IMG/VR virus record: IMGVR_UViG_3300030493_000343
Coordinates: 1 to 37,742 of that record
From: a virus
Lineage: Duplodnaviria; Caudoviricetes
Strand: one strand, 5' to 3'
Length of the DNA: 37,742 nt
The notes under the pieces were generated by a model. It made no database searches, was not told the DNA's origin, and saw only the letters and a program-made list of their open reading frames with translations. A program made the position numbers and the translations under genes. Numbering within the stretch: the first letter of the stretch is position 1; each line of letters starts with the position of its first letter. Positions 2,912 to 32,872 of this stretch are shown piece by piece.

Positions 2912-2985
2912 TCCCTAGTAGCTCAGTTGGTTAGAGCGGCGGACTGTTAATCCGTAGGTCGTAGGTTCAAGTCCTACCTGGGGAG
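2912..2985 (+). tRNA. tRNA-Asn (GTT)
   Basis: Acceptor TCCCTAG/CTGGGGA, D arm AGCTCAGTTGGTTAGAGC, anticodon arm GCGGA-CTGTTAA-TCCGT (GTT at 2946-2948), T arm GTAGG-TTCAAGT-CCTAC; CCA not encoded. Confidence 0.98.
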
Positions 2986-3001
2986 CGAAATGTGTAAAAT
3001 T

Positions 3002-3040
3002 AATCCGTTGTAAATCAGTAACTTACAACGGATTTTTTAT
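3002..3040 (+). terminator. Intrinsic terminator after tRNA-Asn
   Basis: Perfect 12-bp stem AATCCGTTGTAA (3002-3013)/TTACAACGGATT (3023-3034) followed by a T run. Confidence 0.85.
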
Positions 3041-3045
3041 TTTAC

Positions 3046-3067
3046 TTCCCAACACATTTCCCAACAC
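3046..3067. repeat. Direct repeat TTCCCAACAC x2; probable integrase arm-type sites
   Basis: Exact 10-mers at 3046-3055 and 3058-3067, about 60 bp inside the tRNA junction, next to an IHF-consensus match at 3013-3025. Confidence 0.6.
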
Positions 3068-3740: not shown

Positions 3741-4028
3741 TTATTTCTCTTCTTCGCTCTTTCCGAACAGTCGTGTAAGAAGTGGATTCATATTATTCAG
3801 GGCGTTCCTTTCTTCTTCATTCAAGGGACGGGGGGTAACTAATTTGATTAGCTCGAGTTTTGCCTTTACCCGGTCTTTAATCCGCAGTTTTTTCACTTCC
3901 TTGATGAAGGTATCGAAATCATTGTTGACGTAATCAATGATCCTGCCTTTTACGGTCAATTGAAGCTTGTTTTTTGCTCCTACCGGCCGACCGTTTGGGT
4001 TATTTGTTTTTCCTTTTACTCCCGCCAT
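3741..4028 (-). CDS. Putative terminase small subunit-like protein
   Basis: Start MAGVKGKTNNPNGRPVGAKNK (N-P-x-G-R-P-x-G-x-x-N-K motif typical of DUF5681/TerS-like N-termini). TACTTTTG -7 element at 4062-4055. Confidence 0.55.
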   Translation of the reverse strand: MAGVKGKTNNPNGRPVGAKNKLQLTVKGRIIDYVNNDFDTFIKEVKKLRIKDRVKAKLELIKLVTPRPLNEEERNALNNMNPLLTRLFGKSEEEK

Positions 4029-4101
4029 ACTTCTGATAATTACAAATCTTAACACAAAAGTATCCTTTTGAACCTGCGGGATGACTGTTCCCCAAAGTGA
4101 C

Positions 4102-5855: not shown

Positions 5856-8800
5856 ATGCCACTTTATACAAGCAAAGGGAAAATATACGATATACCTGAT
5901 AACCGGGTGAATGCTTTTCTGCAGGCAAGGAAAGATGCAAAGCCTTTTGAAAAGAAAAAGATTAACCTTCCCCCTGTTCCGGTTCCTGCAAACGAGGGAT
6001 TATCTTTTACTCCTTCCCAATCTTCATTTTCTCCTTCATTGAAAGCTGAAGATACGGTTGCGACCGCGATGCAGAATTTTGATCGATTGAAGGCAGAGCA
6101 ACCCAATGTACCCCGTGAAAAAGGGTTCTGGAACACATGGGCCGGTGATGCAGTAGAGAAGCTGGGGGAAGGCACAGCGTGGGCAGGCGAAGGTATCACC
6201 CGATTTGCTAATCTTCCCGTAAAGGTTTATGCCAATACCATAGCAAATAAAGAGGGGATGAACCCGGAAGAGAAATACGCCTTCTCGAAGCTAATGGCCG
6301 CTTCTGCTGCGAATACTTTGAATGTAGAGATGACCGCTGACGCACTGAAGGGAGTACAGGAAAAGCTAGCCGGTAAAGCTGACCGATACGGGGGTAAAGA
6401 TTTTGCCGATTTATGGAAGGCAGGGGACAAGAGCGGGGCTATTGGCCATATCATGCTGGAAGGAGTTAAGAGCCTCCCAATGTCGATAATGGCCGGCGTT
6501 AATCCGGGTGTAGGTTTATCGGTTATTGGTGCGGCTTCTACCGGGCAGAAATATGAGGACCTATCGGACACTGAAAAGCCATCAGCTTTTGCATCATCGA
6601 AGGAGTGGCAGGATTACAGGAGCAATATGTCCATGGGGGAACTGGCCAAGGTTTCCAATGCATTTTTAAGCGGGGCGGCCGAAGCTGGCAGCGAACTCCT
6701 GGGATCGATCCCAATTTTTGGTTGGTTAGGCCGCACATACGCCAAACTTGGAGGGAAAGCAACGGGCGACATCGTTAAAAAAGGCGTTAAGAAGTGGATG
6801 GACGGGATGTTTGACCGTTATGGTCTTCTACTCGCACCTATCGCAGAAGGAAACGAGGAAGTGGCCAACAAAGTTGCCGAGAATACCATCGACTATTTGA
6901 CAGGAGCCAGAACCGACTTTAAACCCTTTGAAGGTACCGGAGAATCGTTCGTTTACGGCGCTGGTGGTGGTGCTCAGTTTTCAGTAGCCGCACTACCTGG
7001 CGTAATAGCCAATCGCTTCACTGGGAAAAGGCAAACGGATATGCCGACTGTTCCTGAAATCAGCATACAGGATCAGGTTAATACCCGGATGCAGCAGGTC
7101 CAGCAGGCTATCCGTGAATCAGCCAATCCTGATATGGGCGCAGTTGTTTCCGCTATCGTCCAGGGCGGTGAACAGCCTGTCCGTATTACCGGCGGTCGTA
7201 TTGTGACCAGACAGGACGGAAGTATAGACCGGGAAAACTCTGACAAGCAAATCTTCTACATTGATGAACAGGGAAACAAGAAAGTCACCTCCATTGATTT
7301 CGTTGAAGAAATAGCAGAAAATATGCCCCTTCCGGATGCCCTGAACTACGCAGGTCAGACTATTCAGGATGAATTCAGGGCAGAGCAGGAAAACGCCGCA
7401 GTACGTCCATACGAAGTGAATGAAACCGTCACGGCTGATATGGGCAACGGGATCACATTTACAGGTCAGATTACAGCTGTCGATGATCAGGGAATGTATG
7501 TTGTCACCGATGCCCAGACCGGCCAGCAGGTAACCATTGAACCCAGGCAAATTGTCGATCAGGACAACATACAGGGTGTTGAGAATGGATCCGTTGTCGA
7601 CTACATGGATGATCAGGGCAACGAGAGAACCGGGACCGTGGACGATGCTCACGGGGTCAGGCCTCAGGGTTTGGTAATCATTGACGGGGAGGGCATCCCT
7701 ATTGAGAAAATTTTAGGGCTGACAGAGCAAAGGAAAGCAGAGCAGGCAACTCAGACACACGGGCAGCCTATGTCTGCACCGCCCATAAAGGCTATCCGGC
7801 TGGGGAAAGATTCTTTTGATTTCAAACAGAATGATGACGGTTCCTTCACCTTTGTTCCATCTGAAAAACTTGATGCCGATAGCGCTTTGGAGAAGCTCGA
7901 AAAAGAATTCAAGGATAATAAGAAGTGGGAAGTAGTTGCCGGGAAAGAACAAATCGAAGTGCCCCCGGCAAACCCGTTTCAGGATCCTACTTTACAAACT
8001 GTCGTGAAAAGCATTCAGATAAGGCGTAAAAATAATCAAAATGCTACACAGCCAACGGGCGGAGACAACAACTTGTCAAAAAGTGAGGTAGATCCCGGAT
8101 TGAAGGCCGAAGCTGAAGCGGAAACAAAGCCGTCTTATTCCTTCAACGGGAAGGATGTTTCAAAAGACTATGTCCACGGAGTTATCGAAGATGCGCAAAG
8201 TAAAGAGGATCTGGCCGGACTGACCTACAGAAATGATCCGGATATCGATGCCATGATCGAAAAGAAATTTCCTGCGCCAAAAACTACCTACCGGATCGGA
8301 AAAACAGAAGTTTCCCGGGACCGGGCATTGGCCAGAATTGACATGGCCGGAACACAGGAACAATTAGAGGAACTGAAGATCGGGAACGATCCGCAGATGC
8401 AGCAAGCTTACAATGCAAAGCTGGCCGAATTCCGGGAACGGGATGACCAGGCTCAGGCTGAAATTAACCGGAAGCATGACAAGCTTGTCTCGATGATGCA
8501 GTCATACAACCAGATTTCACCCGCAGAAAGAAGGCGTATCAATACAGCCTCCATGATGCAGCTTGCTTCTGAATTAGGCTACTACGTAAAGTATGAAAAC
8601 GGCAACGGTGTCCGGATCTTTAGAAACGGTACTGAAATCCGCAGGAATGCGGACAGATTGTCCAATGATGAAATTCAGTCTCACCGCTCATTATCTGACT
8701 ACGATGAGCCGGTTCAAAAGTTGGCCGGTTCTTTATTGCTCCCGTTGAACGTTGAAGGAGTAGAAATCGGCACCATGCAGCCCAAAGAGATTAACCAGGC

Positions 8801-11800
8801 TATTTTGGATGTCCAGGCGGGAAAGAAAACAGTTCTTTCCAACCAGCTTCTTGATGAAATTGAGAAAATTCATACCTCAGGCATCGTGCGGATTAAAGGT
8901 GACCGGAAGACCGGATTTCCCGGAATGGAGGTCCCGATCGATGAATATGTATCCATGATCAACAGCGATATGAGTGAAGCCGATAATAACGCAGCTGTGC
9001 TCATTCCTGAAGATGTTGCCCTAAATATCGAACAAGATCAGTTATCCCCTGAAATACTCAGCCAATTTGAAAACCTAATATTTGAAGGATATGAAAACAC
9101 CCAGCGACAAACCACAGGTACAGAACAACCCAATGCCCAGTCCGGCACAAGTGAAAGCGTACCTGAAACTTCGCAACCACAGGAATCTGAAAATGTTGAA
9201 GGAGAAGTACCGGAACAAGTAACCGACAGCATTTCAGAAGATGAAAAACCTGTTGAACCAGCCGGAGAAATTGATTCAGTCGAACAGGGAGAAAATACCC
9301 CAGAGGAAGAACAAAGGAAGGGAGTCAGCGAAGGATTGGAAGAAAAAGGGACACAGACTACCGCAAACCAGGTGACATCTGGTTTTAATGGTGATTTCCT
9401 TGCTTTAGCTAACCGGGTGATAGAGAATGATAAAATCAGGCAGGAAGAAGCAAAGGTCAATACAAATCCCTCTGAAGCGCAGAAAGAAGCCGGTAATTAT
9501 AAGAAGGGCCATGTCAGGACCCAGGGTTTTGATATCACCATCGAAAACCCCAAAGGATCCGTTCGTTCAGGAGTAGATGAAGATGGCCGGGCATGGGAGC
9601 ATACCATGCAGAATTCATACGGCTATTTCAAACGTACTGAAGGAAAGGACGGAGATCAGATAGACGTTTTTTTAGGCGATAATCCAACTTCCAAAAGAAT
9701 CTTAGTTGTTGACCAGAACAACCCATACACAGGCGAATTTGACGAGAGCAAAGTCATGTTAGCGTTTGATACCGCCCAGCAAGCGAAAGATGCATACATG
9801 TCAAACTATGAACCCGGTTGGACCGGATTCAGAACAATTACCGAAGTGCCGGTTGAGAAATTCCGGGAATGGCTGTATGACGGTGCCAGACAGAGGAAAC
9901 CGTTTTCGGAGTATAAAGGCATGTCAGATCTAGTTAAAATACAAAAAGAAAATAATAACTTTGAGGAAAACCAGATAGATGAAAGAGCGCAAACGTATAA
10001 AACCAAAGAAGGGCAAGAAATACAATATACCCTCCAATTTGGTGACTACGACAGGACAGGCACCGGTGACCTACAACGGAAAGATAATCAAAGACAATCC
10101 CCAAGTCTTAGAAAATTAAGGCCAGGCGAAATTTCATCTGTAGAGATGAAATACACCGCGGATAAAAATTTTGTATTCGACGGCCGGAACAAAATTGAAA
10201 GCACCGATGATGTTGCCTACCTTTTCAGGCAGCTTGAAAATAAGTCGGTGGAAAATATGTTTGCAGCCCTGATTGACGAAAAGGGAAAACCTACTATTCT
10301 GCATCTTTCCATGGGAGGCCGTGCCGGAACGGTGATTGATTTTGGTATCCTGTCCGATGCAATTCACCGCTTTAAGCCGAAAAAGGTTTATCTTTTGCAC
10401 AATCATCCCTCCGGAAACCTTCAGTATTCAGAGGCAGATATAAGGATGCATCAAAAAGCCCGTGACGCTTTTGGCCAAGACCTGATCGGAGAACATATCA
10501 TCATCAATACTACTTCAGGGCAATATGCCAGCTTTACGACCAGATATGACTATGAGATATCAGACCGTCCAATAGATGTTGAAAATGCCCGGAATTACCG
10601 TGTTTTGAAATTTGACAAACAGGTATTCAGAGAAAACACAGTACTGCCGGTACAGGTTACAGGTTCCGCTGATGTGGCAAAGTTTGTAACAGCACAGCGG
10701 TTTTCCGCAAAGGATAAGCAATCCGTACTGTTATTGAGCAGAAGCAATAACATTGTGGCTTATCTTCATATTTCTTCCACGGATTTTTCGTCAAAAGAAA
10801 GCGTTGAAAATCTCATTAAGGAATTACAGGCCTATGCCGGGCGTTTCGGGGCAAAAGGCATTATACTAACCGGAAAAATTCCTGATACAAAATCAAAGTA
10901 TGATGCTCAGGAGTTACAAAATTTCCGGATTGGTATCAGATCTCTAAAAACCAATCTTGAGAACCTGGATGTGTCCCTGTTGGATTATGTTTTTGTAAAA
11001 TCAGATCTGAACCATGAGTCTATGGTCGATGAAGGACTAATGGAACCGGAAGGGGAATACAGGCCTTTGGGCAGAATCACAGTTGACGGGATTGACCGGC
11101 CTGCAAAAAACAGTGAAGGAAAGACAATTCACCCCACGGAGTCGGGGATCAGAAATTTCTGGCGGTGGTTCTCTGATTTTGATAAAGCAAAACGCATCGA
11201 GAAGTTAAGAAATTCAAAACCCATTGAAATTACGGGTAATGAAATCACTCCAAGTGATGATCTGAAAGAGTATAAGAAGAACGCGCTGGAATATGGGAAG
11301 AAACTCCAAGGAGAATATATAAATAAAGATACCGGCGCAACTGTTATGTTGCAACGCGGAAGAAGGAACGGAGGAATAAATGAAGTACTGCAACATGATT
11401 ATAAAGATGTTGAACATCTACAGTCGATTGCCGCTATTCCGCAGATAATCGAAAATGGAATTTATATCGACAGTAGAGAGAACGATAATAAGGAAAAAAA
11501 TCCCGATGTTGCGCGATACGATTATTATGTTTCTGGGTTAAAGATTAGTAATGTTGACTATACTGTTCGTTCAAGCATTGCAATTGACACGAAAGGGAAC
11601 CGTTATTACGACCACAAGTTGACGCAGATAGAAAAAAGAAAACTGCTTGATTCACTTTCCGGAATAACAACTCCCGGGTTTAATCAAGCAGTTTATAACG
11701 GTTTTGGCACAACGCCCGGCACTAAGCCTACTACCGAATACAAAGATAAAAAATTACTTGATCTTTTACAAGTAAGGTCATCAAAAGTGATTGATGGCCA

Positions 11801-14800
11801 AGGAAGACCATTAGTTGTATACCACGGCAGTCCGGTAAAAGGCATCCAGACTTTTGACCTTAATAAATCAGGGCAGAATGTTCAGGGAGAAAGAGGTGCA
11901 GTTTTTTTCACCGACAACGAAAAATTAGCGGATGATTTTTCTTATGAGCGCCTTTCGACGAATGTTCCATTTAAAGATATAAAGGGTAAAAAGGGGCAGG
12001 TCTATCCTGTTTACCTGAGAATGATGAACCCGTTTGATCTTCGGAATATGACCCCGGAAATGGCTGAAATTCTGTCAAAAGAGGATGGATTGCTTTCTTG
12101 GGAACAGGTTATTGAATGGTCCAAAGTAAAGAACAGGCAGCTTATAAAGGCCGGATTACCTAAGCCATTGAGTAAGTTAGCCGCCTACGGCTATGATGGA
12201 GTGATAGCTGGTTTGAATGAGGGTGGTTCGGAATATGCCGTCTTTGATCCTTCGCAGATTAAATCAGTTGAAAATGAGGGAGCCATTGATTCAGAATTCT
12301 TCGATATCTTAGAAGAACAGAAAGCAGGATACTCAAAATCCAGCGGATCCACATCAAATAAAAATCAACCCGGAACAACTGAGCAGGCCCGTATTGAGTT
12401 GGACAAAAGGCTTAAAAATTTAAGGTTTCGTATCCGGGAAGCATGGGAAGACCGCCATTTGGCCGTAAAAAGATTTCTGGACCTTCTCCGTGAAAAAGGA
12501 ACTGAGATTCCCGAATATAACGACTATTACCTGCAGGCGACCCACATCAACGGTAAAATAGATGCACAGCTAAACCAGTATGACAGGAGCTTTCATGTGC
12601 CGCTTAATGATGCAATCCGTGACCTGGAAGACAATGGAGCCAGTTACAGGAGCATAGAGAACTATGCGATTCTCAAACACGGGCTGGAACGCAACGAATG
12701 GATGCGGCAAAAAGCCATTGATGATTTCATGGCTGCCAACCCTGATGCAACCTATGACCAGATTACAAAGTTTGAAGATCGTCTCCCGGATGACTTTTCC
12801 GGGATCACCGCAGTCCAGGAAGAGGTAGAGATGTCAGCCGAAGAATTCATAAGCGATTTCGAGGCCAAGACAGGCAGCCAAAAACTTCTTGATAATTTCT
12901 GGGGCAAAGTCAAAGAGGCCACATCGTTTGCACTAAAAAAGCAGCTTGAAGGCGGATTGATTGACAAGAAAACCTATGACGAACTTATTGCCCGTTACCG
13001 GTATTACATTCCCCTTCGCGGTCACGATGCAGAAACGGCGGAGGACAGGTGGGATTACAGTCCTGATATGGGGACCTACTTTTCTGCTCCTTTACTTGTG
13101 GCAAGGGGAAGAAAAACAAGGTCTGAAAGCCCGTTTGCCTTTATCAGTCAAATGGCTCAAAGCGCAGTTACTTCCTCCAACAGGAATTTGCTCAACCAAA
13201 CGCTGTTAAGACTGGCCGGTAAGGACAAAACAGGATTGTTAAAGGCAAGCAAAACATGGTATGTACAGGCCGGGGTTAACAACGAAGGGAAACCCGTTTT
13301 TGAATCCCGGTCTCCCGCTTACTCGGATGATGCCCAAACATTCAGAGAGAATATTGAGGAATTCGAAGAGCAGATGAAAAAACTGGCCGAACAGGGTCTT
13401 GCATTCCAAAGCGGAGCAAAGCTGAATATCGGCGGACTGTTTATTAAACCTTCACAGGCGGAGCAACACGAGGTTCATGTTTACCAGAATGGCGTTGAAC
13501 ACGTTGTTTACATTAACGCCAATCCTGCTGTGTCCAGGGCTATTACCGGCATGAATTCCAAAGATCTGCACAAGGATCTTCAATGGCTTGCTAAAAGATC
13601 GAAATGGATGGCGGCCAATTTTACCACGAGGAACCCGGTCTTTGTTTTATCTAACTTTTCCCGTGACTATATTTTTGCCTCGTCCATCCTTTCTGTGAAG
13701 GAAAATGCGCTGTATGCATTACAATTCCAGCGAAACATTCTGAAATCAGCCGGGGCGTTGCAGCGATATTTAAGAGGCAAAGCGGACCTGAGTAAAGCCG
13801 AGGACCGGTTTATGGTGGAATATATCATGAACGGGGCAAAGACCGGATTTTCTCACCTGGTAGAACTTCAGACAATCCAAAAGAAGATTGAGCGGGAACT
13901 GAAGAAAGGCGACAAAAAGAATGTCTTTAGATACCTGATTGATACGATTGGCTCTTTTAATGAGTTCGCGGAGAACTTATCCCGGTTATCGGTTTATATC
14001 ACCTCCCGGGAACAGGGCCGGGGTATTGTCCGGTCGGTTTCCGATGCGAAGGAAGTTACAGTAAACTTTAACCGCTCAGGTGCCGGAGGCTACGGATCCC
14101 AATGGATCAGGCCCCTTTATCTGTTTGTCAATGCAGGGATTCAGGCTTTGTCAAATTTTACCAAAGTAGCCGGGAAGAATCCCGGTAAGACAGCGCTCCT
14201 TGTTTCATCTTATGCCATGACCGGCTTTTTGATGCCCATGGTAGCTTCTCTTCTCGGCGGTGATGACGGACTGGATGAATACTTGAAACTGAGTGACTGG
14301 GAACGCCAGAATAACCTTTGCATATACACCGGTAAAGGTTTTATTAAGATCCCGTTACCTCACGAATTGCGGGTATTCAATAAAATGGGTGATGAGATTT
14401 ATCAGTCTGCATTCGGGCAAAAGGATGTGGCACAATCGATTCTTGATGTGTCGCTTGGATTTGCCGATCTTATTCCGGCCAATCCAATGGGATCACTGGA
14501 AATAGAATCCTGGTCAAACCTGCTTCCGGATGTATTTCGTCCCTTTGCCAACCTTGCCGAAAACAAAAACTTCATGGGCGGCAGGATATGGAATGAATGG
14601 GCTGATCCGAATAAACCGGGTTATTTAAAGGTAAGAACAAACAAACGGGGCGAACCATACGCGCCTTCTTTCCTGGTTCGGATTGCTGCCGATTTGGACC
14701 GGGCTACCGGAGGTGACGGGGTGGAAAAAGGACTGGTCAGTTTTAACCCCGATAAGCTGAATCATATCATGAGAGGATACTTCGGCGGGCTTTACAATGT

Positions 14801-15230
14801 GGCCCAACAAGGACTGGATATCGCAAGTAAAACCTACGACTGGACACAAACCGGAGAATTTGAGTTAAAGGCAAGGGAAACTCCCCTGCGCACTTTCTAT
14901 ACTTCTTCTGATGACCTGCAGGTGTCAGGTAATGGATTGAATTCTAAATATTACAAGGTATCCGGCCAAATGCAGGAAGTGGACAGAAAGATAAAGGGGT
15001 ACCGCGATCAGGCTGCATCCGGAGAATTAAGCCTTGGCGGGTTCTCTGACAAGATAAAAAGTATGGGGTCTGATGTGGAAAGATTAAAACGGACAGACCC
15101 TATTATTAAATCGATCAAACGATATGAAAGCTATCTCAAAGAGCTGAACGGACAGGACCAGAAGGAACTTGAAAAAGTAATCTCAAACTTAAAAAAAGAG
15201 GTAATCAGTATTAACAACCAAACAGAATAA
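5856..15230 (+). CDS. Large polyvalent virion protein (InPase, JAB/RadC x2, LPD3-like, ART-PolyVal-like, LPD38-like C-terminus)
   Basis: Motifs: PSEAQKEAGNYKKGH...ENPKGSVRSG...YGY...DGDQIDVF...FDESKVML (InPase, ~9456-9918); LLHNHPSG...SEAD (JAB, ~10190-10510); NKDTG...IPQIIENG...RYYDHKL (LPD3-like, ~11180-11640); GRPLVVYHGS...FFTDN...YPVYL...GYDGVI...EYAVFDPSQIKS (ART-like, ~11780-12290); TVNFNRSG...IKIPLPHEL...YFGG (LPD38-like, ~14050-14800). Confidence 0.88.
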   Translation: MPLYTSKGKIYDIPDNRVNAFLQARKDAKPFEKKKINLPPVPVPANEGLSFTPSQSSFSPSLKAEDTVATAMQNFDRLKAEQPNVPREKGFWNTWAGDAVEKLGEGTAWAGEGITRFANLPVKVYANTIANKEGMNPEEKYAFSKLMAASAANTLNVEMTADALKGVQEKLAGKADRYGGKDFADLWKAGDKSGAIGHIMLEGVKSLPMSIMAGVNPGVGLSVIGAASTGQKYEDLSDTEKPSAFASSKEWQDYRSNMSMGELAKVSNAFLSGAAEAGSELLGSIPIFGWLGRTYAKLGGKATGDIVKKGVKKWMDGMFDRYGLLLAPIAEGNEEVANKVAENTIDYLTGARTDFKPFEGTGESFVYGAGGGAQFSVAALPGVIANRFTGKRQTDMPTVPEISIQDQVNTRMQQVQQAIRESANPDMGAVVSAIVQGGEQPVRITGGRIVTRQDGSIDRENSDKQIFYIDEQGNKKVTSIDFVEEIAENMPLPDALNYAGQTIQDEFRAEQENAAVRPYEVNETVTADMGNGITFTGQITAVDDQGMYVVTDAQTGQQVTIEPRQIVDQDNIQGVENGSVVDYMDDQGNERTGTVDDAHGVRPQGLVIIDGEGIPIEKILGLTEQRKAEQATQTHGQPMSAPPIKAIRLGKDSFDFKQNDDGSFTFVPSEKLDADSALEKLEKEFKDNKKWEVVAGKEQIEVPPANPFQDPTLQTVVKSIQIRRKNNQNATQPTGGDNNLSKSEVDPGLKAEAEAETKPSYSFNGKDVSKDYVHGVIEDAQSKEDLAGLTYRNDPDIDAMIEKKFPAPKTTYRIGKTEVSRDRALARIDMAGTQEQLEELKIGNDPQMQQAYNAKLAEFRERDDQAQAEINRKHDKLVSMMQSYNQISPAERRRINTASMMQLASELGYYVKYENGNGVRIFRNGTEIRRNADRLSNDEIQSHRSLSDYDEPVQKLAGSLLLPLNVEGVEIGTMQPKEINQAILDVQAGKKTVLSNQLLDEIEKIHTSGIVRIKGDRKTGFPGMEVPIDEYVSMINSDMSEADNNAAVLIPEDVALNIEQDQLSPEILSQFENLIFEGYENTQRQTTGTEQPNAQSGTSESVPETSQPQESENVEGEVPEQVTDSISEDEKPVEPAGEIDSVEQGENTPEEEQRKGVSEGLEEKGTQTTANQVTSGFNGDFLALANRVIENDKIRQEEAKVNTNPSEAQKEAGNYKKGHVRTQGFDITIENPKGSVRSGVDEDGRAWEHTMQNSYGYFKRTEGKDGDQIDVFLGDNPTSKRILVVDQNNPYTGEFDESKVMLAFDTAQQAKDAYMSNYEPGWTGFRTITEVPVEKFREWLYDGARQRKPFSEYKGMSDLVKIQKENNNFEENQIDERAQTYKTKEGQEIQYTLQFGDYDRTGTGDLQRKDNQRQSPSLRKLRPGEISSVEMKYTADKNFVFDGRNKIESTDDVAYLFRQLENKSVENMFAALIDEKGKPTILHLSMGGRAGTVIDFGILSDAIHRFKPKKVYLLHNHPSGNLQYSEADIRMHQKARDAFGQDLIGEHIIINTTSGQYASFTTRYDYEISDRPIDVENARNYRVLKFDKQVFRENTVLPVQVTGSADVAKFVTAQRFSAKDKQSVLLLSRSNNIVAYLHISSTDFSSKESVENLIKELQAYAGRFGAKGIILTGKIPDTKSKYDAQELQNFRIGIRSLKTNLENLDVSLLDYVFVKSDLNHESMVDEGLMEPEGEYRPLGRITVDGIDRPAKNSEGKTIHPTESGIRNFWRWFSDFDKAKRIEKLRNSKPIEITGNEITPSDDLKEYKKNALEYGKKLQGEYINKDTGATVMLQRGRRNGGINEVLQHDYKDVEHLQSIAAIPQIIENGIYIDSRENDNKEKNPDVARYDYYVSGLKISNVDYTVRSSIAIDTKGNRYYDHKLTQIEKRKLLDSLSGITTPGFNQAVYNGFGTTPGTKPTTEYKDKKLLDLLQVRSSKVIDGQGRPLVVYHGSPVKGIQTFDLNKSGQNVQGERGAVFFTDNEKLADDFSYERLSTNVPFKDIKGKKGQVYPVYLRMMNPFDLRNMTPEMAEILSKEDGLLSWEQVIEWSKVKNRQLIKAGLPKPLSKLAAYGYDGVIAGLNEGGSEYAVFDPSQIKSVENEGAIDSEFFDILEEQKAGYSKSSGSTSNKNQPGTTEQARIELDKRLKNLRFRIREAWEDRHLAVKRFLDLLREKGTEIPEYNDYYLQATHINGKIDAQLNQYDRSFHVPLNDAIRDLEDNGASYRSIENYAILKHGLERNEWMRQKAIDDFMAANPDATYDQITKFEDRLPDDFSGITAVQEEVEMSAEEFISDFEAKTGSQKLLDNFWGKVKEATSFALKKQLEGGLIDKKTYDELIARYRYYIPLRGHDAETAEDRWDYSPDMGTYFSAPLLVARGRKTRSESPFAFISQMAQSAVTSSNRNLLNQTLLRLAGKDKTGLLKASKTWYVQAGVNNEGKPVFESRSPAYSDDAQTFRENIEEFEEQMKKLAEQGLAFQSGAKLNIGGLFIKPSQAEQHEVHVYQNGVEHVVYINANPAVSRAITGMNSKDLHKDLQWLAKRSKWMAANFTTRNPVFVLSNFSRDYIFASSILSVKENALYALQFQRNILKSAGALQRYLRGKADLSKAEDRFMVEYIMNGAKTGFSHLVELQTIQKKIERELKKGDKKNVFRYLIDTIGSFNEFAENLSRLSVYITSREQGRGIVRSVSDAKEVTVNFNRSGAGGYGSQWIRPLYLFVNAGIQALSNFTKVAGKNPGKTALLVSSYAMTGFLMPMVASLLGGDDGLDEYLKLSDWERQNNLCIYTGKGFIKIPLPHELRVFNKMGDEIYQSAFGQKDVAQSILDVSLGFADLIPANPMGSLEIESWSNLLPDVFRPFANLAENKNFMGGRIWNEWADPNKPGYLKVRTNKRGEPYAPSFLVRIAADLDRATGGDGVEKGLVSFNPDKLNHIMRGYFGGLYNVAQQGLDIASKTYDWTQTGEFELKARETPLRTFYTSSDDLQVSGNGLNSKYYKVSGQMQEVDRKIKGYRDQAASGELSLGGFSDKIKSMGSDVERLKRTDPIIKSIKRYESYLKELNGQDQKELEKVISNLKKEVISINNQTE
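9091..9222 (+). CDS. Candidate nested +1-frame mini-ORF (43 aa) inside the polyvalent gene
   Basis: MKTPSDKPQVQNNPMPSPAQVKAYLKLRNHRNLKMLKEKYRNK*. Overlies a low-complexity linker; near-consensus AATATTTG at 9077-9084. Confidence 0.35.
   Translation: MKTPSDKPQVQNNPMPSPAQVKAYLKLRNHRNLKMLKEKYRNK
9979..10119 (+). CDS. Candidate nested +1-frame mini-ORF (46 aa) with its own promoter
   Basis: MKERKRIKPKKGKKYNIPSNLVTTTGQAPVTYNGKIIKDNPQVLEN*. Perfect TAACTTTG -7 element at 9956-9963, 15 nt upstream; fills the InPase-JAB linker. Confidence 0.5.
   Translation: MKERKRIKPKKGKKYNIPSNLVTTTGQAPVTYNGKIIKDNPQVLEN
11631..11736 (-). ncRNA. Candidate structured antisense sRNA inside the polyvalent gene
   Basis: Minus-strand TTG-N20-TATCTTTG promoter (11771-11741); perfect 13-bp inverted repeat 11640-11652/11682-11694 followed by a U tract; inner 6-bp stem with a 7-nt loop. 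Confidence 0.6.
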
Positions 15231-30256: not shown

Positions 30257-32872
30257 TTATTTCATTTTTGAATTACCGTATTCGTTATCTGCCAATACAT
30301 CGATAAACTGAATCTCTGTTCCATCGCTGACTTGCCCGCCAAAAGAGAACAAAAATTGTCGGAATTTGACCGATCCCATAAGTCCCATATCGATATCTCT
30401 CAGGTTATTCGGCTTCATCTGTAGCCCGCGGGTCCCTTTGAATAGTGCGCCATCGTTCGAGTGATGTATCATACAAACAGCGGCCTTGCCCACAACAGGC
30501 GTATTCAGCTCATAGATCGTAGCCCGCAGGATCATCCGCTCCAACTTCTTCACATCCTCTGAGCCAAAAGTGAGTGGCCTGGTTATAAAACTCATATGTG
30601 CTGTTGAGCTGTTAGCTTCAGAAAAGTCTTTCAGCTTTTGCCCTTCCAGTACCAGCAATTTGGCCGGGGTATTCTTTATGATCAAACTGATCTTTTCCGT
30701 AGACCGGTAAAACAACTTAGCCGGGATATTTAAAACGAAATTAAAGTCTGATTCCTTATCGGATATGATCAACTCCGATTCAAGCGGGTTGTACGCGATA
30801 TTATCCAGAGCTGACAGGTAAGTCAAGAATGAACTTTGATACGGGTCATGGACAACACCGGTTACCTGGTCGGGCTTCTCAATATTTAGCGCAACAGGGG
30901 CCTGCTCTAATTGTGGTGACAACAGCTCAACCGATTGTCCGTTAATCAGCATCAGTCCCCGGGGACCTGTAAAAACAACTCCAAACGGTGTGGAACAAAC
31001 AACTTTGGTTGTAGGAGCTTCCGGGTAAGTCGGAGCCGACAACGTAGAATAAACTACTTCCCCGGTGCCTACAGCAAGCGTCCAGATACCTTGGGTAGTG
31101 AAAATATACAGCGGATATTGTCCATAGTTACGATCTGCAACATTCATGGAGTTTGTTGCTACGGCCAATATTTCCCCACTGCCAGCTTGATAGACGTTCT
31201 TGTTAAGGAATGATAAAGGATTTGACAGTTCAGATACCTTAATCTTATTACCTTCCTGTAAGGTAACAGGCGTCGAACTGTATGGCGACGCCGAAAGAGC
31301 TGTATTTGTAGTCTGGACAATCGGGTTTAAGCCATCATTCAGGTAATAGGCAAGGTTCAGGAAGTTGTGTTCCTTAAGATTAACGGCTAATACTTTGTAC
31401 CAGCTACCTGATGAATGCCTGTATACAGTGAGCTTCTTTGCCCGCGGATCAGGATATGATATAAACCCGCTCAAGAACAGCTTATAAATGCCGGAAGCGT
31501 CAGTATTGTATAATCCTTTATATACCTTTTCGTTAGCAAGACCTGTATTAATCTCAACTTCGATCAAAAGACTGTCCCAAATCGGACCCGGCGCATCCGC
31601 GTATTTATATCCGTTATAATTGCCGTACGTGGTAACATTCGCATCAAGCCATAGAAAATAATCCGGATTAAATCCTTTAAAAAAAGTTGTTTTTATATCG
31701 GCCAGATGGAGCCGGTTGTTATAGGCGTAACTTACTTTAGCCCCGTATTTGTGATTTGAAAAATTATCATCGGTCATTACTTCCTGCTGTATCAGATTTT
31801 CTGCGGAAGAAACATCCTTGTTTTCAGACAGGAATTCATAAGGGCTTAGTACGCTTGCTGACGTCCCTAATTCAAAACTTTTAACCAGATAGAAGCTGGA
31901 AGTATTCGCAACATTCTTTAACGCCTCGGCAGGAATCAGAGTTATCGCCTGGCGGTCCCAGAATGTTGCCGATGAGCTTGTGGGAAGGTCTTTTATATTA
32001 TCAACCTGAGATATGCCAAGGGGTGCGGACATGAAAAGATCAACTGATTGTATGATATCCGCCCATTCGGAAAACCCGGTCAAGTCAAACCATGTGTAAA
32101 TACGATACCCGTACACGTCGGTATATGATGCATCGTCGAGTTCTCCGGCCGCATCAAAATTATAGTATAAACGTTTAAGATCGAGTATGTTCCTGACAGG
32201 CATAATCAGGATAGGAGGAGAATGCTTTGTCAGGGTTCCGTCGTATAGCCTGAAGGCGTAGCGGACAAAGCAAGCATCAAAAAGCTGGTATCCCTGTGCA
32301 GCTATAGGATCGCCGTTTTCGTCAACTCCGCCGTTAACTAAAACGTCCATCGCCTTATTTATAAGCCCTTTTGCAGATTTTAAAAAGTTATCAGTCGTTC
32401 GGGTTATCGTTCCGTGACCGTACTCGTTAATAAAATAATATTTAGCGTGTGACATTACCGTGGATGTTTTGAAACTAAGCGGCGGGCATTGCGGCATTTC
32501 GCCCAAAAACCGGTATTGACCATTGCGGAAAAACAAGTAGAATACAGAATCATCCGTAACGATTGATAAGGTATTGCCTATCTGCTCAATCCCGTTGACT
32601 GACGTACCGATGACGGTTATTGCATCGGGGTTTGCGTCCCGGATGTCGTAGTAAACGGTTCCGCCAATAGTGCCAATCCAGTTTTCGTAATCGTTGCCCC
32701 GGTGTACAAAAACGATATTATAACTCTGAGATAAATCCTGGAGAATCTTCCTGGGCGAAACAGGATGCATCGCACCGTTTTTAGGACGTAGATTGACCAG
32801 TGAACGGGTTGCACCTTCTTCGTAGGCGCTTGTTGTGGAAATTCCTTTGATTGGTATAGAAAATCTTGCCAT
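30257..32872 (-). CDS. Tail stabilisation/nozzle protein (P22 gp10-like role)
   Basis: 871-aa beta-rich protein; SLVNLRPKNG, YNNRLHLAD, IKVSELSNPLSF, YGQYPLYIFTTQGIW pattern of podovirus tail hub proteins. Confidence 0.6.
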   Translation of the reverse strand: MARFSIPIKGISTTSAYEEGATRSLVNLRPKNGAMHPVSPRKILQDLSQSYNIVFVHRGNDYENWIGTIGGTVYYDIRDANPDAITVIGTSVNGIEQIGNTLSIVTDDSVFYLFFRNGQYRFLGEMPQCPPLSFKTSTVMSHAKYYFINEYGHGTITRTTDNFLKSAKGLINKAMDVLVNGGVDENGDPIAAQGYQLFDACFVRYAFRLYDGTLTKHSPPILIMPVRNILDLKRLYYNFDAAGELDDASYTDVYGYRIYTWFDLTGFSEWADIIQSVDLFMSAPLGISQVDNIKDLPTSSSATFWDRQAITLIPAEALKNVANTSSFYLVKSFELGTSASVLSPYEFLSENKDVSSAENLIQQEVMTDDNFSNHKYGAKVSYAYNNRLHLADIKTTFFKGFNPDYFLWLDANVTTYGNYNGYKYADAPGPIWDSLLIEVEINTGLANEKVYKGLYNTDASGIYKLFLSGFISYPDPRAKKLTVYRHSSGSWYKVLAVNLKEHNFLNLAYYLNDGLNPIVQTTNTALSASPYSSTPVTLQEGNKIKVSELSNPLSFLNKNVYQAGSGEILAVATNSMNVADRNYGQYPLYIFTTQGIWTLAVGTGEVVYSTLSAPTYPEAPTTKVVCSTPFGVVFTGPRGLMLINGQSVELLSPQLEQAPVALNIEKPDQVTGVVHDPYQSSFLTYLSALDNIAYNPLESELIISDKESDFNFVLNIPAKLFYRSTEKISLIIKNTPAKLLVLEGQKLKDFSEANSSTAHMSFITRPLTFGSEDVKKLERMILRATIYELNTPVVGKAAVCMIHHSNDGALFKGTRGLQMKPNNLRDIDMGLMGSVKFRQFLFSFGGQVSDGTEIQFIDVLADNEYGNSKMK

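What the first reader, a model, noticed from the sequence alone, without database searches (positions are those of the whole stretch)
11631..11771. Complete antisense sRNA unit right after the RNase-like LPD3 domain
Seen on the minus strand: TTG (11771-11769)-N20-TATCTTTG (11748-11741), then about 105 nt containing a repeat CCGGG[C/A]GTTGT (42 nt apart), a perfect 13-bp stem AAACTGCTTGATT/AATCAAGCAGTTT, and a U tract TTCTTTTTT. The stem encloses CCGGGA-GUUGUUA-UUCCGG, a 6-bp stem with a 7-nt loop whose G-U pair works only on the minus strand. Known: LPD3 has been predicted to be a BECR-fold RNase, and type III TA systems use repeat-containing RNA antitoxins. Inference: an RNA antitoxin or decoy, possibly mimicking an anticodon stem-loop, encoded within the toxin's own ORF.
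Basis: partly seen in the sequence, partly recalled or inferred. Interest (0 to 1): 0.85.

Follow-up and report, generated by a model that had tools for sequence, protein, structure and literature searches.

The report
Hidden RNA antidote inside phage toxin
A phage's giant multi-domain gene carries, on its opposite strand and right behind a predicted RNA-cutting domain, a conserved small-RNA gene that likely makes an antidote binding that enzyme; this copy also carries a second RNA module that was likely taken from a related phage, which would make it an RNA form of acquired immunity.

Summary
The unit is real. Behind LPD3 domains (122 non-redundant loci) lies an antisense promoter fixed at synonymous sites, whose form follows the host phylum, then a covarying RNA and a U-tract. 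A homologous unit is transcribed from the predicted start in two published Neisseria gonorrhoeae datasets; there are no RNA data for this window. LPD3 models as a BECR RNase (modest Z). A strict promoter follows 33 of 41 BECR-type domains and 0 of 74 others, and correctly predicted LPD13 as BECR-like. Correction: the RNA has two modules. Orphan cassettes without LPD3 exist. Best reading (0.62): an RNA antitoxin of a virion-borne RNase; main rival: base-pairing antisense (0.2). Binding and toxicity are untested; anticodon mimicry is weak. Not found in print (10 searches). This scan noted the general design before on other DNA (e1-9712188, e1-9750241, e1-2668651).

The parts
11769..11771 (-). 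-33 element (TTG) of the antisense promoter
   Evidence: Overlying Gln codon is CAA in 119 of 119 loci against 71 expected
11741..11748 (-). -7 element TATCTTTG, Bacteroidota sigma-ABfr type
   Evidence: Lys AAA 104 of 104 (61 expected), Asp GAT 115 of 117 (68), preceding codon ends in C 104 of 122 (28); consensus as in PMC7366714
11632..11736 (-). Predicted small RNA, about 105 nt; start 11735-11737 inferred
   Evidence: homologous unit transcribed in Neisseria; no RNA data for this window
11698..11737 (-). Module A: three-way junction (5-bp stem, two 3-bp hairpins with 5-nt loops); goes with this LPD3 clade, likely the cognate antitoxin
   Evidence: 97.8% of cells paired, 9 of 11 pairs with both-side changes; 4-fold sites 81% identical against 27% in LPD3
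11640..11694 (-). Module E: 13-bp terminator stem carrying the apical hairpin; matches the RNA of a sister LPD3 clade, likely acquired
   Evidence: 76% paired, 12 of 19 pairs with both-side changes; 36 of 36 nt match to L156
11659..11677 (-). Apical 6-bp stem with 7-nt U-turn-type loop
11632..11639 (-). U-tract of the predicted intrinsic terminator
   Evidence: Ile ATA 102 of 117 (40 expected), Glu GAA 107 of 122 (75), Lys AAA 99 of 122 (72)
11259..11609 (+). LPD3 domain (PF18798, residues 1802-1918), predicted BECR-fold RNase with invariant His in the first helix and a conserved C-terminal strand motif
5856..15230 (+). 3124-aa phage polyvalent protein (InPase, RadC, LPD3, ART-PolyVal, LPD38) between an internal-virion-like gene and the portal gene

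Best explanation
The unit is a small-RNA gene written antisense into the linker behind the LPD3 domain, and its RNA likely folds into an antitoxin that binds and blocks that predicted RNase. Shown: promoter, structure and terminator are conserved at the DNA level, and a homologous unit is transcribed in a lysogen. Inferred: the polyvalent protein is packaged and injected; host RNA polymerase makes the RNA from the prophage or the incoming genome; module A neutralises this phage's own LPD3; module E, taken from a sister clade, would protect against that clade's LPD3 brought in by a rival phage. A host that destroys the incoming DNA would keep the injected RNase and lose the antidote (speculative).
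For: One unit per RNase domain, not per gene: strict promoter after 33 of 41 BECR-type domains and 0 of 74 other domains in 20 genes; L246 has 11 units in one ORF. LPD13, flagged only by having the unit (3 of 4), then modelled as BECR: top 7 VIA rows are RNase toxins, Z 6.2-4.4. Each domain family, and each LPD3 clade, has its own RNA family (RNA similarity in 89% of 74 pairs at 75% or more LPD3 identity, 0.8% of 2674 pairs below 45%). In module A the unpaired bases are invariant while stems covary, the pattern expected of protein recognition (inference). 9 of 28 long RNAs carry two or more modules; in 4 of the 9 (window, L074, L076, L135) the foreign module lies between the domain and its cognate module. 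Orphan cassettes without LPD3: L330 (modules A and E in tandem, each with a promoter), L333, L324. Expression of a homologue: NgncR_132, 604 RPKM against 4.5 for the sense gene, and an FA1090 transcript starting at the same mapped base.
Against: No toxicity, binding or rescue data. No RNA data for this window. The Neisseria transcripts are annotated at 309 and 147 nt, longer than the about 78 nt to the predicted terminator, so they overlap LPD3 codons. Transposon insertions in NgncR_132 are tolerated (8; adjusted p 0.076), though the sense gene is nearly silent there. Physical linkage alone could give clade congruence. LPD3 fold scores are modest (Z 6.4, rmsd 3.5, 93 aligned; Foldseek E 4.7e-3). 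Anticodon likeness is weak and absent for module A. Iyer et al. argue that PBECR domains may spare host tRNA and rRNA.
Confidence: 0.62

Rival explanations
1. Base-pairing antisense RNA: it pairs with (or its transcription collides with) the late mRNA behind the RNase codons, silencing leaky toxin expression in the lysogen and excluding superinfecting phages that carry the same sequence, as STnc6030 does for BTP1.
For: Perfect complementarity by position; high antisense and low sense signal in a lysogen, with transcripts longer than the hairpin; loops fit the U-turn pattern that I recall from plasmid antisense RNAs; the acquired module is a 36 of 36 nt match to its donor, as pairing would need; STnc6030 precedent (passages).
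Against: One unit would silence the whole mRNA, yet units follow each RNase domain and no other domain. A cis-antisense loop co-mutates with its target and need not stay fixed, yet unpaired bases are invariant where LPD3 synonymous sites are saturated. Orphans keep the fold with changed stems.
Confidence: 0.2
2. The RNA is a cofactor, guide or packaging partner of the RNase domain (an active ribonucleoprotein), not an inhibitor.
For: The same one-to-one domain and RNA pairing and structural conservation.
Against: Orphan cassettes and foreign modules have no enzyme to assist; no variable guide segment: the invariant part is the unpaired part; high expression while the gene is silent.
Confidence: 0.08
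3. A tRNA-like decoy aimed at host defence nucleases or other host proteins, placed in a linker only because linkers tolerate it.
Against: 0 of 74 linkers after non-RNase domains carry the strict promoter; RNA type tracks the phage's own RNase clade; no Rfam match.
Confidence: 0.06
4. A sense-strand mRNA element (attenuator, pause or processing site), with the promoter-like words being protein constraints.
For: The plus strand also folds (z -4.6; below -2 against synonymous recoding in 76 of 122).
Against: G-U pairs 455 against 179 and lower energy on the minus strand in 113 of 122; promoter fixed at synonymous sites, switching to sigma-70 form in Pasteurellaceae, Neisseria, Treponema and Nitrospirota, and kept out of frame or after stops; antisense start mapped by RNA-seq in a homologue.
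Confidence: 0.04

Closest known systems
Type III toxin-antitoxin systems (ToxIN, CptIN, TenpIN; also AbiF, AvcID)
   Same: An RNase paired with a non-coding, structured RNA that has its own promoter and intrinsic terminator; likely direct inhibition (inferred here).
   Different: Here the toxin is a BECR-fold domain inside a 3000-aa virion protein; the RNA lies downstream, on the opposite strand, inside the ORF; no tandem pseudoknot repeats upstream in one operon (criteria from PMC12283969 passages); no Rfam match.
PBECR/MuF-C domains of phage polyvalent proteins (Iyer et al. 2017, PMC5512222)
   Same: [quoted passage not shown]
   Different: Section 19 (read whole) names no immunity factor or RNA and lists LPD3 apart from the PBECR families.
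Polymorphic toxin immunity and orphan immunity arrays (CdiI; acquired interbacterial defence of Bacteroidales; recalled, not from a call)
   Same: One immunity unit directly behind each toxin domain; foreign and orphan units accumulate.
   Different: The immunity unit here would be an RNA, antisense and in frame within the toxin ORF, and delivery would be by the virion.
STnc6030 antisense RNA of Salmonella prophage BTP1 (PMC7067206, passages)
   Same: Lysogen-expressed antisense RNA within late, DNA-injection genes; protects against related phage.
   Different: 786 nt, proposed to act by base pairing; no link to an RNase domain, no compact covarying fold reported in the passages read.
NgncR_132 of Neisseria gonorrhoeae MS11 (PMC4176332 Table S1)
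   Same: Maps to the homologous unit behind an LPD3 domain.
   Different: Listed only as an antisense transcript; no paper in the library names it in its main text; single rod-type RNA without module A.

Membership tests
Type III TA (ToxIN/CptIN/TenpIN) | Antitoxin array upstream of the toxin, same strand, one operon, terminator between them | tested here: not met
   RNA is downstream, antisense, inside the ORF
Type III TA (ToxIN/CptIN/TenpIN) | Tandem repeats that fold as pseudoknots | tested here: not met
   Covariation supports a three-way junction and a rod; only an 11-nt word is shared; no Rfam hit. Pseudoknots were not searched for as such.
Type III TA (ToxIN/CptIN/TenpIN) | Toxin of the ToxN/AbiQ family | tested here: inconclusive
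   Pfam gives LPD3 only; top fold rows are BECR toxins; absence from the list does not exclude
Type III TA by mechanism | RNA binds the toxin protein and inhibits it | not testable with these tools
   Indirect support only
BECR-fold RNases (colicin D-like, PBECR) | [quoted passage not shown] | tested here: met
   Model pLDDT 87; best rows 7m5f_C Z 6.4 rmsd 3.5 over 93, 6cp9_A Z 5.1, BrnT, MqsR, colicin D; Z under 8, so moderate
BECR-fold RNases (colicin D-like, PBECR) | [quoted passage not shown] | tested here: met
   H64 in 90% or more of 72 sequences; last-strand motif invariant, but the loci were selected on that motif
BECR-fold RNases (colicin D-like, PBECR) | RNase activity and toxicity | not testable with these tools
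   No assay
Cis-antisense regulators (STnc6030, type I antitoxins) | Transcribed antisense to the target mRNA | tested here: met
   By position; transcribed in a homologue
Cis-antisense regulators (STnc6030, type I antitoxins) | Acts by pairing, lowering target mRNA or translation | not testable with these tools
   Per-domain distribution and invariant loops argue against it as the sole role
Anticodon stem-loop mimic | 5-bp stem, 7-nt loop and sequence like a host anticodon arm | tested here: inconclusive
   N-U-NNN-U-A loop on 4 bp or more in 38 of 122 against 5-12 shuffled; likeness to 41 arms of one host in 22 of 122 against 6-15; module A does not fit
Bacteroidota sigma-ABfr promoter | TAnnTTTG at -7 and TTTG near -33 | tested here: met
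   -7 box perfect; -33 has TTG (3 of 4 letters) at 20 nt

The most novel reading that the evidence does not exclude
Phages run a polymorphic toxin system whose immunity is RNA: virion-injected BECR RNases each have a dedicated antitoxin RNA hidden antisense in the codons behind them, so the cell survives only while the phage genome is intact and transcribed, and prophages and hosts collect foreign RNA modules into multi-module RNAs and orphan arrays as acquired immunity against rival phages' injected RNases.
Probability: 0.4. Interest if true: 0.95.

Novelty: new variant of a known kind. Interest (0 to 1): 0.84.

Why it matters
PBECR, MuF-C and LPD domains are common in phage virion proteins and have no known immunity partner; this gives a direct, cheap answer to test (domain with or without a 40-105-nt RNA). 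It would extend RNA antitoxins to the BECR superfamily, explain the conserved linker peptides of these proteins as promoter and RNA code, give a sequence flag for unrecognised RNase domains (it called LPD13), and add RNA-based acquired immunity to phage-phage and phage-host conflict.

Tried and rejected
Rfam: no credible match. Generic promoter and terminator scan does not see the unit. Sequencing runs: no RNA holder listed; the four wastewater runs laid are contigs and probably DNA, so they say nothing on expression. Profile search of solved structures: nothing significant. LPD3 against LPD13 profile: no match (probability 1.4%). The tree was the quick version, 116 columns, many open forks, with the window's row near a long branch; I used it only as a picture. 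A motif-based typing of RNA modules was not run; one search gives an alignment-based answer instead. Module A model: found in 1 of 151 Bacteroidales genomes searched, that one being a known LPD3 locus, so no sign of a host RNA it copies. Anticodon mimicry: weak. Distant LPD3 in isolated phages: Burkholderia phage vB_E192a has an antisense sigma-70 site after the gene but no significant fold (z 0.25); Achromobacter phage CF418P1 has a rod (z -1.6) but no scan hit, so both are hints only. PMC4148029 main text does not mention NGO1092. Literature searches without a describing paper: (one search was for the promoter consensus). Closed bioRxiv supplements (BECR classification preprint) may list LPD3 or LPD13 as BECR.

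Full report
Observation. They lie inside a 3124-aa ORF (5856-15230) with InPase, RadC, LPD3 (residues 1802-1918), ART-PolyVal and LPD38 domains, between a weak T7 gp14-like gene and a portal gene, with capsid, lysozyme and terminase genes further on. A tRNA-Asn at 2912-2986 beside a host-type MMPL gene suggests a prophage edge (inference). A perfect 13-bp inverted repeat arises in 2 of 300 codon shuffles of the ORF, and the promoter is the only perfect match of its type on the minus strand of the window.

Relatives. A degenerate pattern for the LPD3 C-terminus gave 105 viral and 127 genome stretches. Of 172 non-identical ends I dropped 5 false matches; 150 of the 167 left had the promoter-encoded peptide (one mis-anchored locus, L196, set aside), and 122 remained below 90% identity. 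The set is biased to domains with that motif. In these the promoter is fixed at synonymous positions: Lys AAA 104 of 104 (61 expected from LPD3 codon use), Asp GAT 115 of 117 (68), Gln CAA 119 of 119 (71), preceding codon ending in C 104 of 122 (28); the U-tract shows the same bias. Some control codons also departed from expectation in the other direction (z down to -7.7), so the background is rough. The form follows the host: TAnnTTTG in Bacteroidota (consensus in PMC7366714, one passage), TTGCAA-17-TATCAT in Pasteurellaceae and Neisseria, TTGACA-17 forms in Treponema and Nitrospirota. Of the 17 loci without the anchor, 4 were truncated; among the other 13, four score like the training set although out of frame or broken by stops (L153, L154, L187, L212), most others show a promoter by eye, and L172, L224, L242 do not clearly.

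Strand and structure. Between promoter and U-tract lies an RNA of median 78 nt (69-225). It folds better on the minus strand in 113 of 122, with 455 G-U pairs against 179, and beats synonymous recoding (z below -2) in 111 of 122 against 16 of 120 for an LPD3-body control; the plus strand passes in 76 of 122. The window's RNA has two parts. Module A (11698-11737) is a three-way junction: in 21 distinct copies 97.8% of cells pair and 9 of 11 pairs show both-side changes (0 of 500 shuffles); RNAalifold finds the same fold unprompted; junction and loop bases are invariant. Across 14 loci, four-fold sites are 27% identical in the LPD3 body (495 of 1817) and 81% in module A (524 of 643).

Which module belongs to this domain. 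RNA similarity follows LPD3 identity (tree), which linkage alone could cause. More telling: the window's closest LPD3s (78%) carry module A with a plain terminator hairpin, while carriers of module E are at most 68% identical, yet module E matches L156 over 36 of 36 nt. Of 28 long RNAs among 115, 9 hold two or more recognisable modules; in the window, L074, L076 and L135 the foreign module sits between the domain and its cognate module, with donors as far as 48% (L074). Orphans exist: L330 has an A cassette and an E cassette in tandem, each with a promoter, behind the stop codon of an unrelated gene; L333 has an E cassette in a polyvalent gene with no LPD3 in the 700 nt before it; L324 has module A among rods that look like those of MuF-C and PBECR1, in stop-rich DNA. 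Another phage carries 11083-11788 between divergent flanks, so domain, RNA and promoter move as one cassette.

The protein. The LPD3 model (pLDDT 87) has the helix-plus-sheet BECR layout; best matches are CdiA-CT 7m5f (Z 6.4, rmsd 3.5, 93 aligned; Foldseek E 4.7e-3, probability 1.0) and 6cp9 (Z 5.1), then two secretion-system proteins, BrnT, MqsR, colicin D and E5, RelE. These scores are moderate. His64 is conserved in 90% or more of 72 sequences. Iyer et al. (PMC5512222; passages and section 19 read) list LPD3 apart from PBECR; a 2026 BECR preprint has no LPD3 in its main text (supplements closed).

The unit marks RNase domains. I scanned 20 of 31 non-redundant giant genes with Pfam (the 11 left out were mostly proteobacterial-type or partial; one best stretch per family). 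A strict antisense promoter lies 15-90 codons after 17 of 20 LPD3, 8 of 10 MuF-C, 4 of 5 PBECR1, 1 of 2 PBECR2, 3 of 3 PBECR3, 0 of 1 PBECR5 (33 of 41), after 3 of 4 LPD13, and after 0 of 74 other domains; the -7 box alone gives 36 of 41 and 6 of 74. One gene has 11 units. As a blind test I folded LPD13 (4 sequences, pLDDT 81): its top 7 VIA rows are RNase toxins (Z 6.2-4.4) and Foldseek's first is BrnT.

Expression. Nothing bears on this window. In the N. gonorrhoeae genome behind L200 the unit follows LPD3 in a 2435-aa gene, with -10 at L335 7021-7016. In strain MS11 (PMC4176332, Table S1 rows read) NgncR_132 starts at 1122204, antisense in NGFG_04208, at 604 RPKM against 4.5 for the gene; anchored on the neighbouring 1296-nt gene this is L335 7009 (plus or minus 1), 7 nt after the -10 box; anchored on the gene start it would be 7019, since the strains differ by 10 nt. 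In FA1090 (PMC5399841, one supplementary row) an antisense transcript starts 2669 nt from the stop of NGO1092, again 7009 if the stops coincide (873 RPKM with iron, 11 without, at 4 h). Against a tidy picture: annotated lengths are 309 and 147 nt, not about 78, and 8 transposon insertions were found (adjusted p 0.076).

Mechanism. Shown: a conserved antisense transcription unit with a covarying fold, one per BECR-type domain, expressed in a homologous lysogen. Inferred: the domain is an RNase toxin; the protein is virion-borne (gene context; Iyer et al.); the RNA binds and blocks it (0.62); extra modules give cross-immunity. The base-pairing rival (0.2) explains position and expression but not one unit per RNase domain or invariant loops at saturated synonymous distance. 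The two roles could coexist. Rod loops share a U-turn-like N-U-Y-G-W-U-A word (38 of 122 against 5-12 shuffled and 2 on the sense strand), and some resemble Thr-UGU or Asn-GUU anticodon arms, but against 41 arms of one host the excess is small and module A does not fit; substrate mimicry remains a guess.

Known systems and novelty. It would work like a type III toxin-antitoxin pair but fails the family's layout criteria (PMC12283969 passages); it is laid out like a polymorphic toxin with immunity behind each domain (recalled), but with RNA; it shares position with STnc6030 (PMC7067206 passages). No describing paper was found (listings only except where named); the library lacks most subscription papers. 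This scan has noted the general design on other DNA; those notes are not independent support. What this locus adds is the two-module RNA, the cognate and foreign assignment, orphan tandem cassettes of the same two modules, and the domain-level test.

Verdict. Real feature; new variant of a known kind (RNA antitoxin by likely mechanism, new enzyme superfamily and gene layout); interest 0.84.

Noticed in passing
L246 residues 1766-1902 of the large ORF (L246:5282-5722); also L299, L284, L309: LPD13 (PF18825, function unknown) is followed by the antisense unit and models as a BECR RNase fold.
   Followed up: yes
L324:300-1000: Stop-rich cluster of RNA modules resembling those of MuF-C, LPD3 and PBECR1 domains, without the domains: a possible orphan immunity array.
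   Followed up: partly
L330:460-790: Two tandem orphan cassettes (modules A and E) behind a small gene that resembles window ORF 3741-4055 by eye.
   Followed up: partly
L244, L246, L247, L249, L309 (after MuF-C): MuF-C RNAs end in 5-bp stems with 7-nt loops; the L309 loop equals the host Leu-UAG anticodon loop.
   Followed up: no
L111, L135, L043: RNAs of 200-225 nt with three or more modules; L111 has three full rods in a row.
   Followed up: partly
window 2912-2986 and 3000-3050: tRNA-Asn(GTT) at the likely prophage edge, followed by a strong inverted repeat and T-tract; host-type MMPL gene at 225-2771.
   Followed up: no
window 11083-11788: A different phage in wastewater contigs carries this stretch nearly unchanged between divergent flanks: domain, RNA and promoter move as one cassette; protein P0005 is 96% identical here.
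   Followed up: partly
L337:1378-2003: Burkholderia phage vB_E192a has a stand-alone LPD3 gene after the minor head gene, with an antisense sigma-70 site (10 of 12) in the gap behind it.
   Followed up: partly
FA1090 1051763-1051909 (PMC5399841 supplement): The homologous antisense transcript differs about 80-fold with iron at 4 h (873 against 11 RPKM); one row only.
   Followed up: no
window 30257-32872 (-): 871-aa gene with only an unknown-function PHROG match, opposite the late genes.
   Followed up: no
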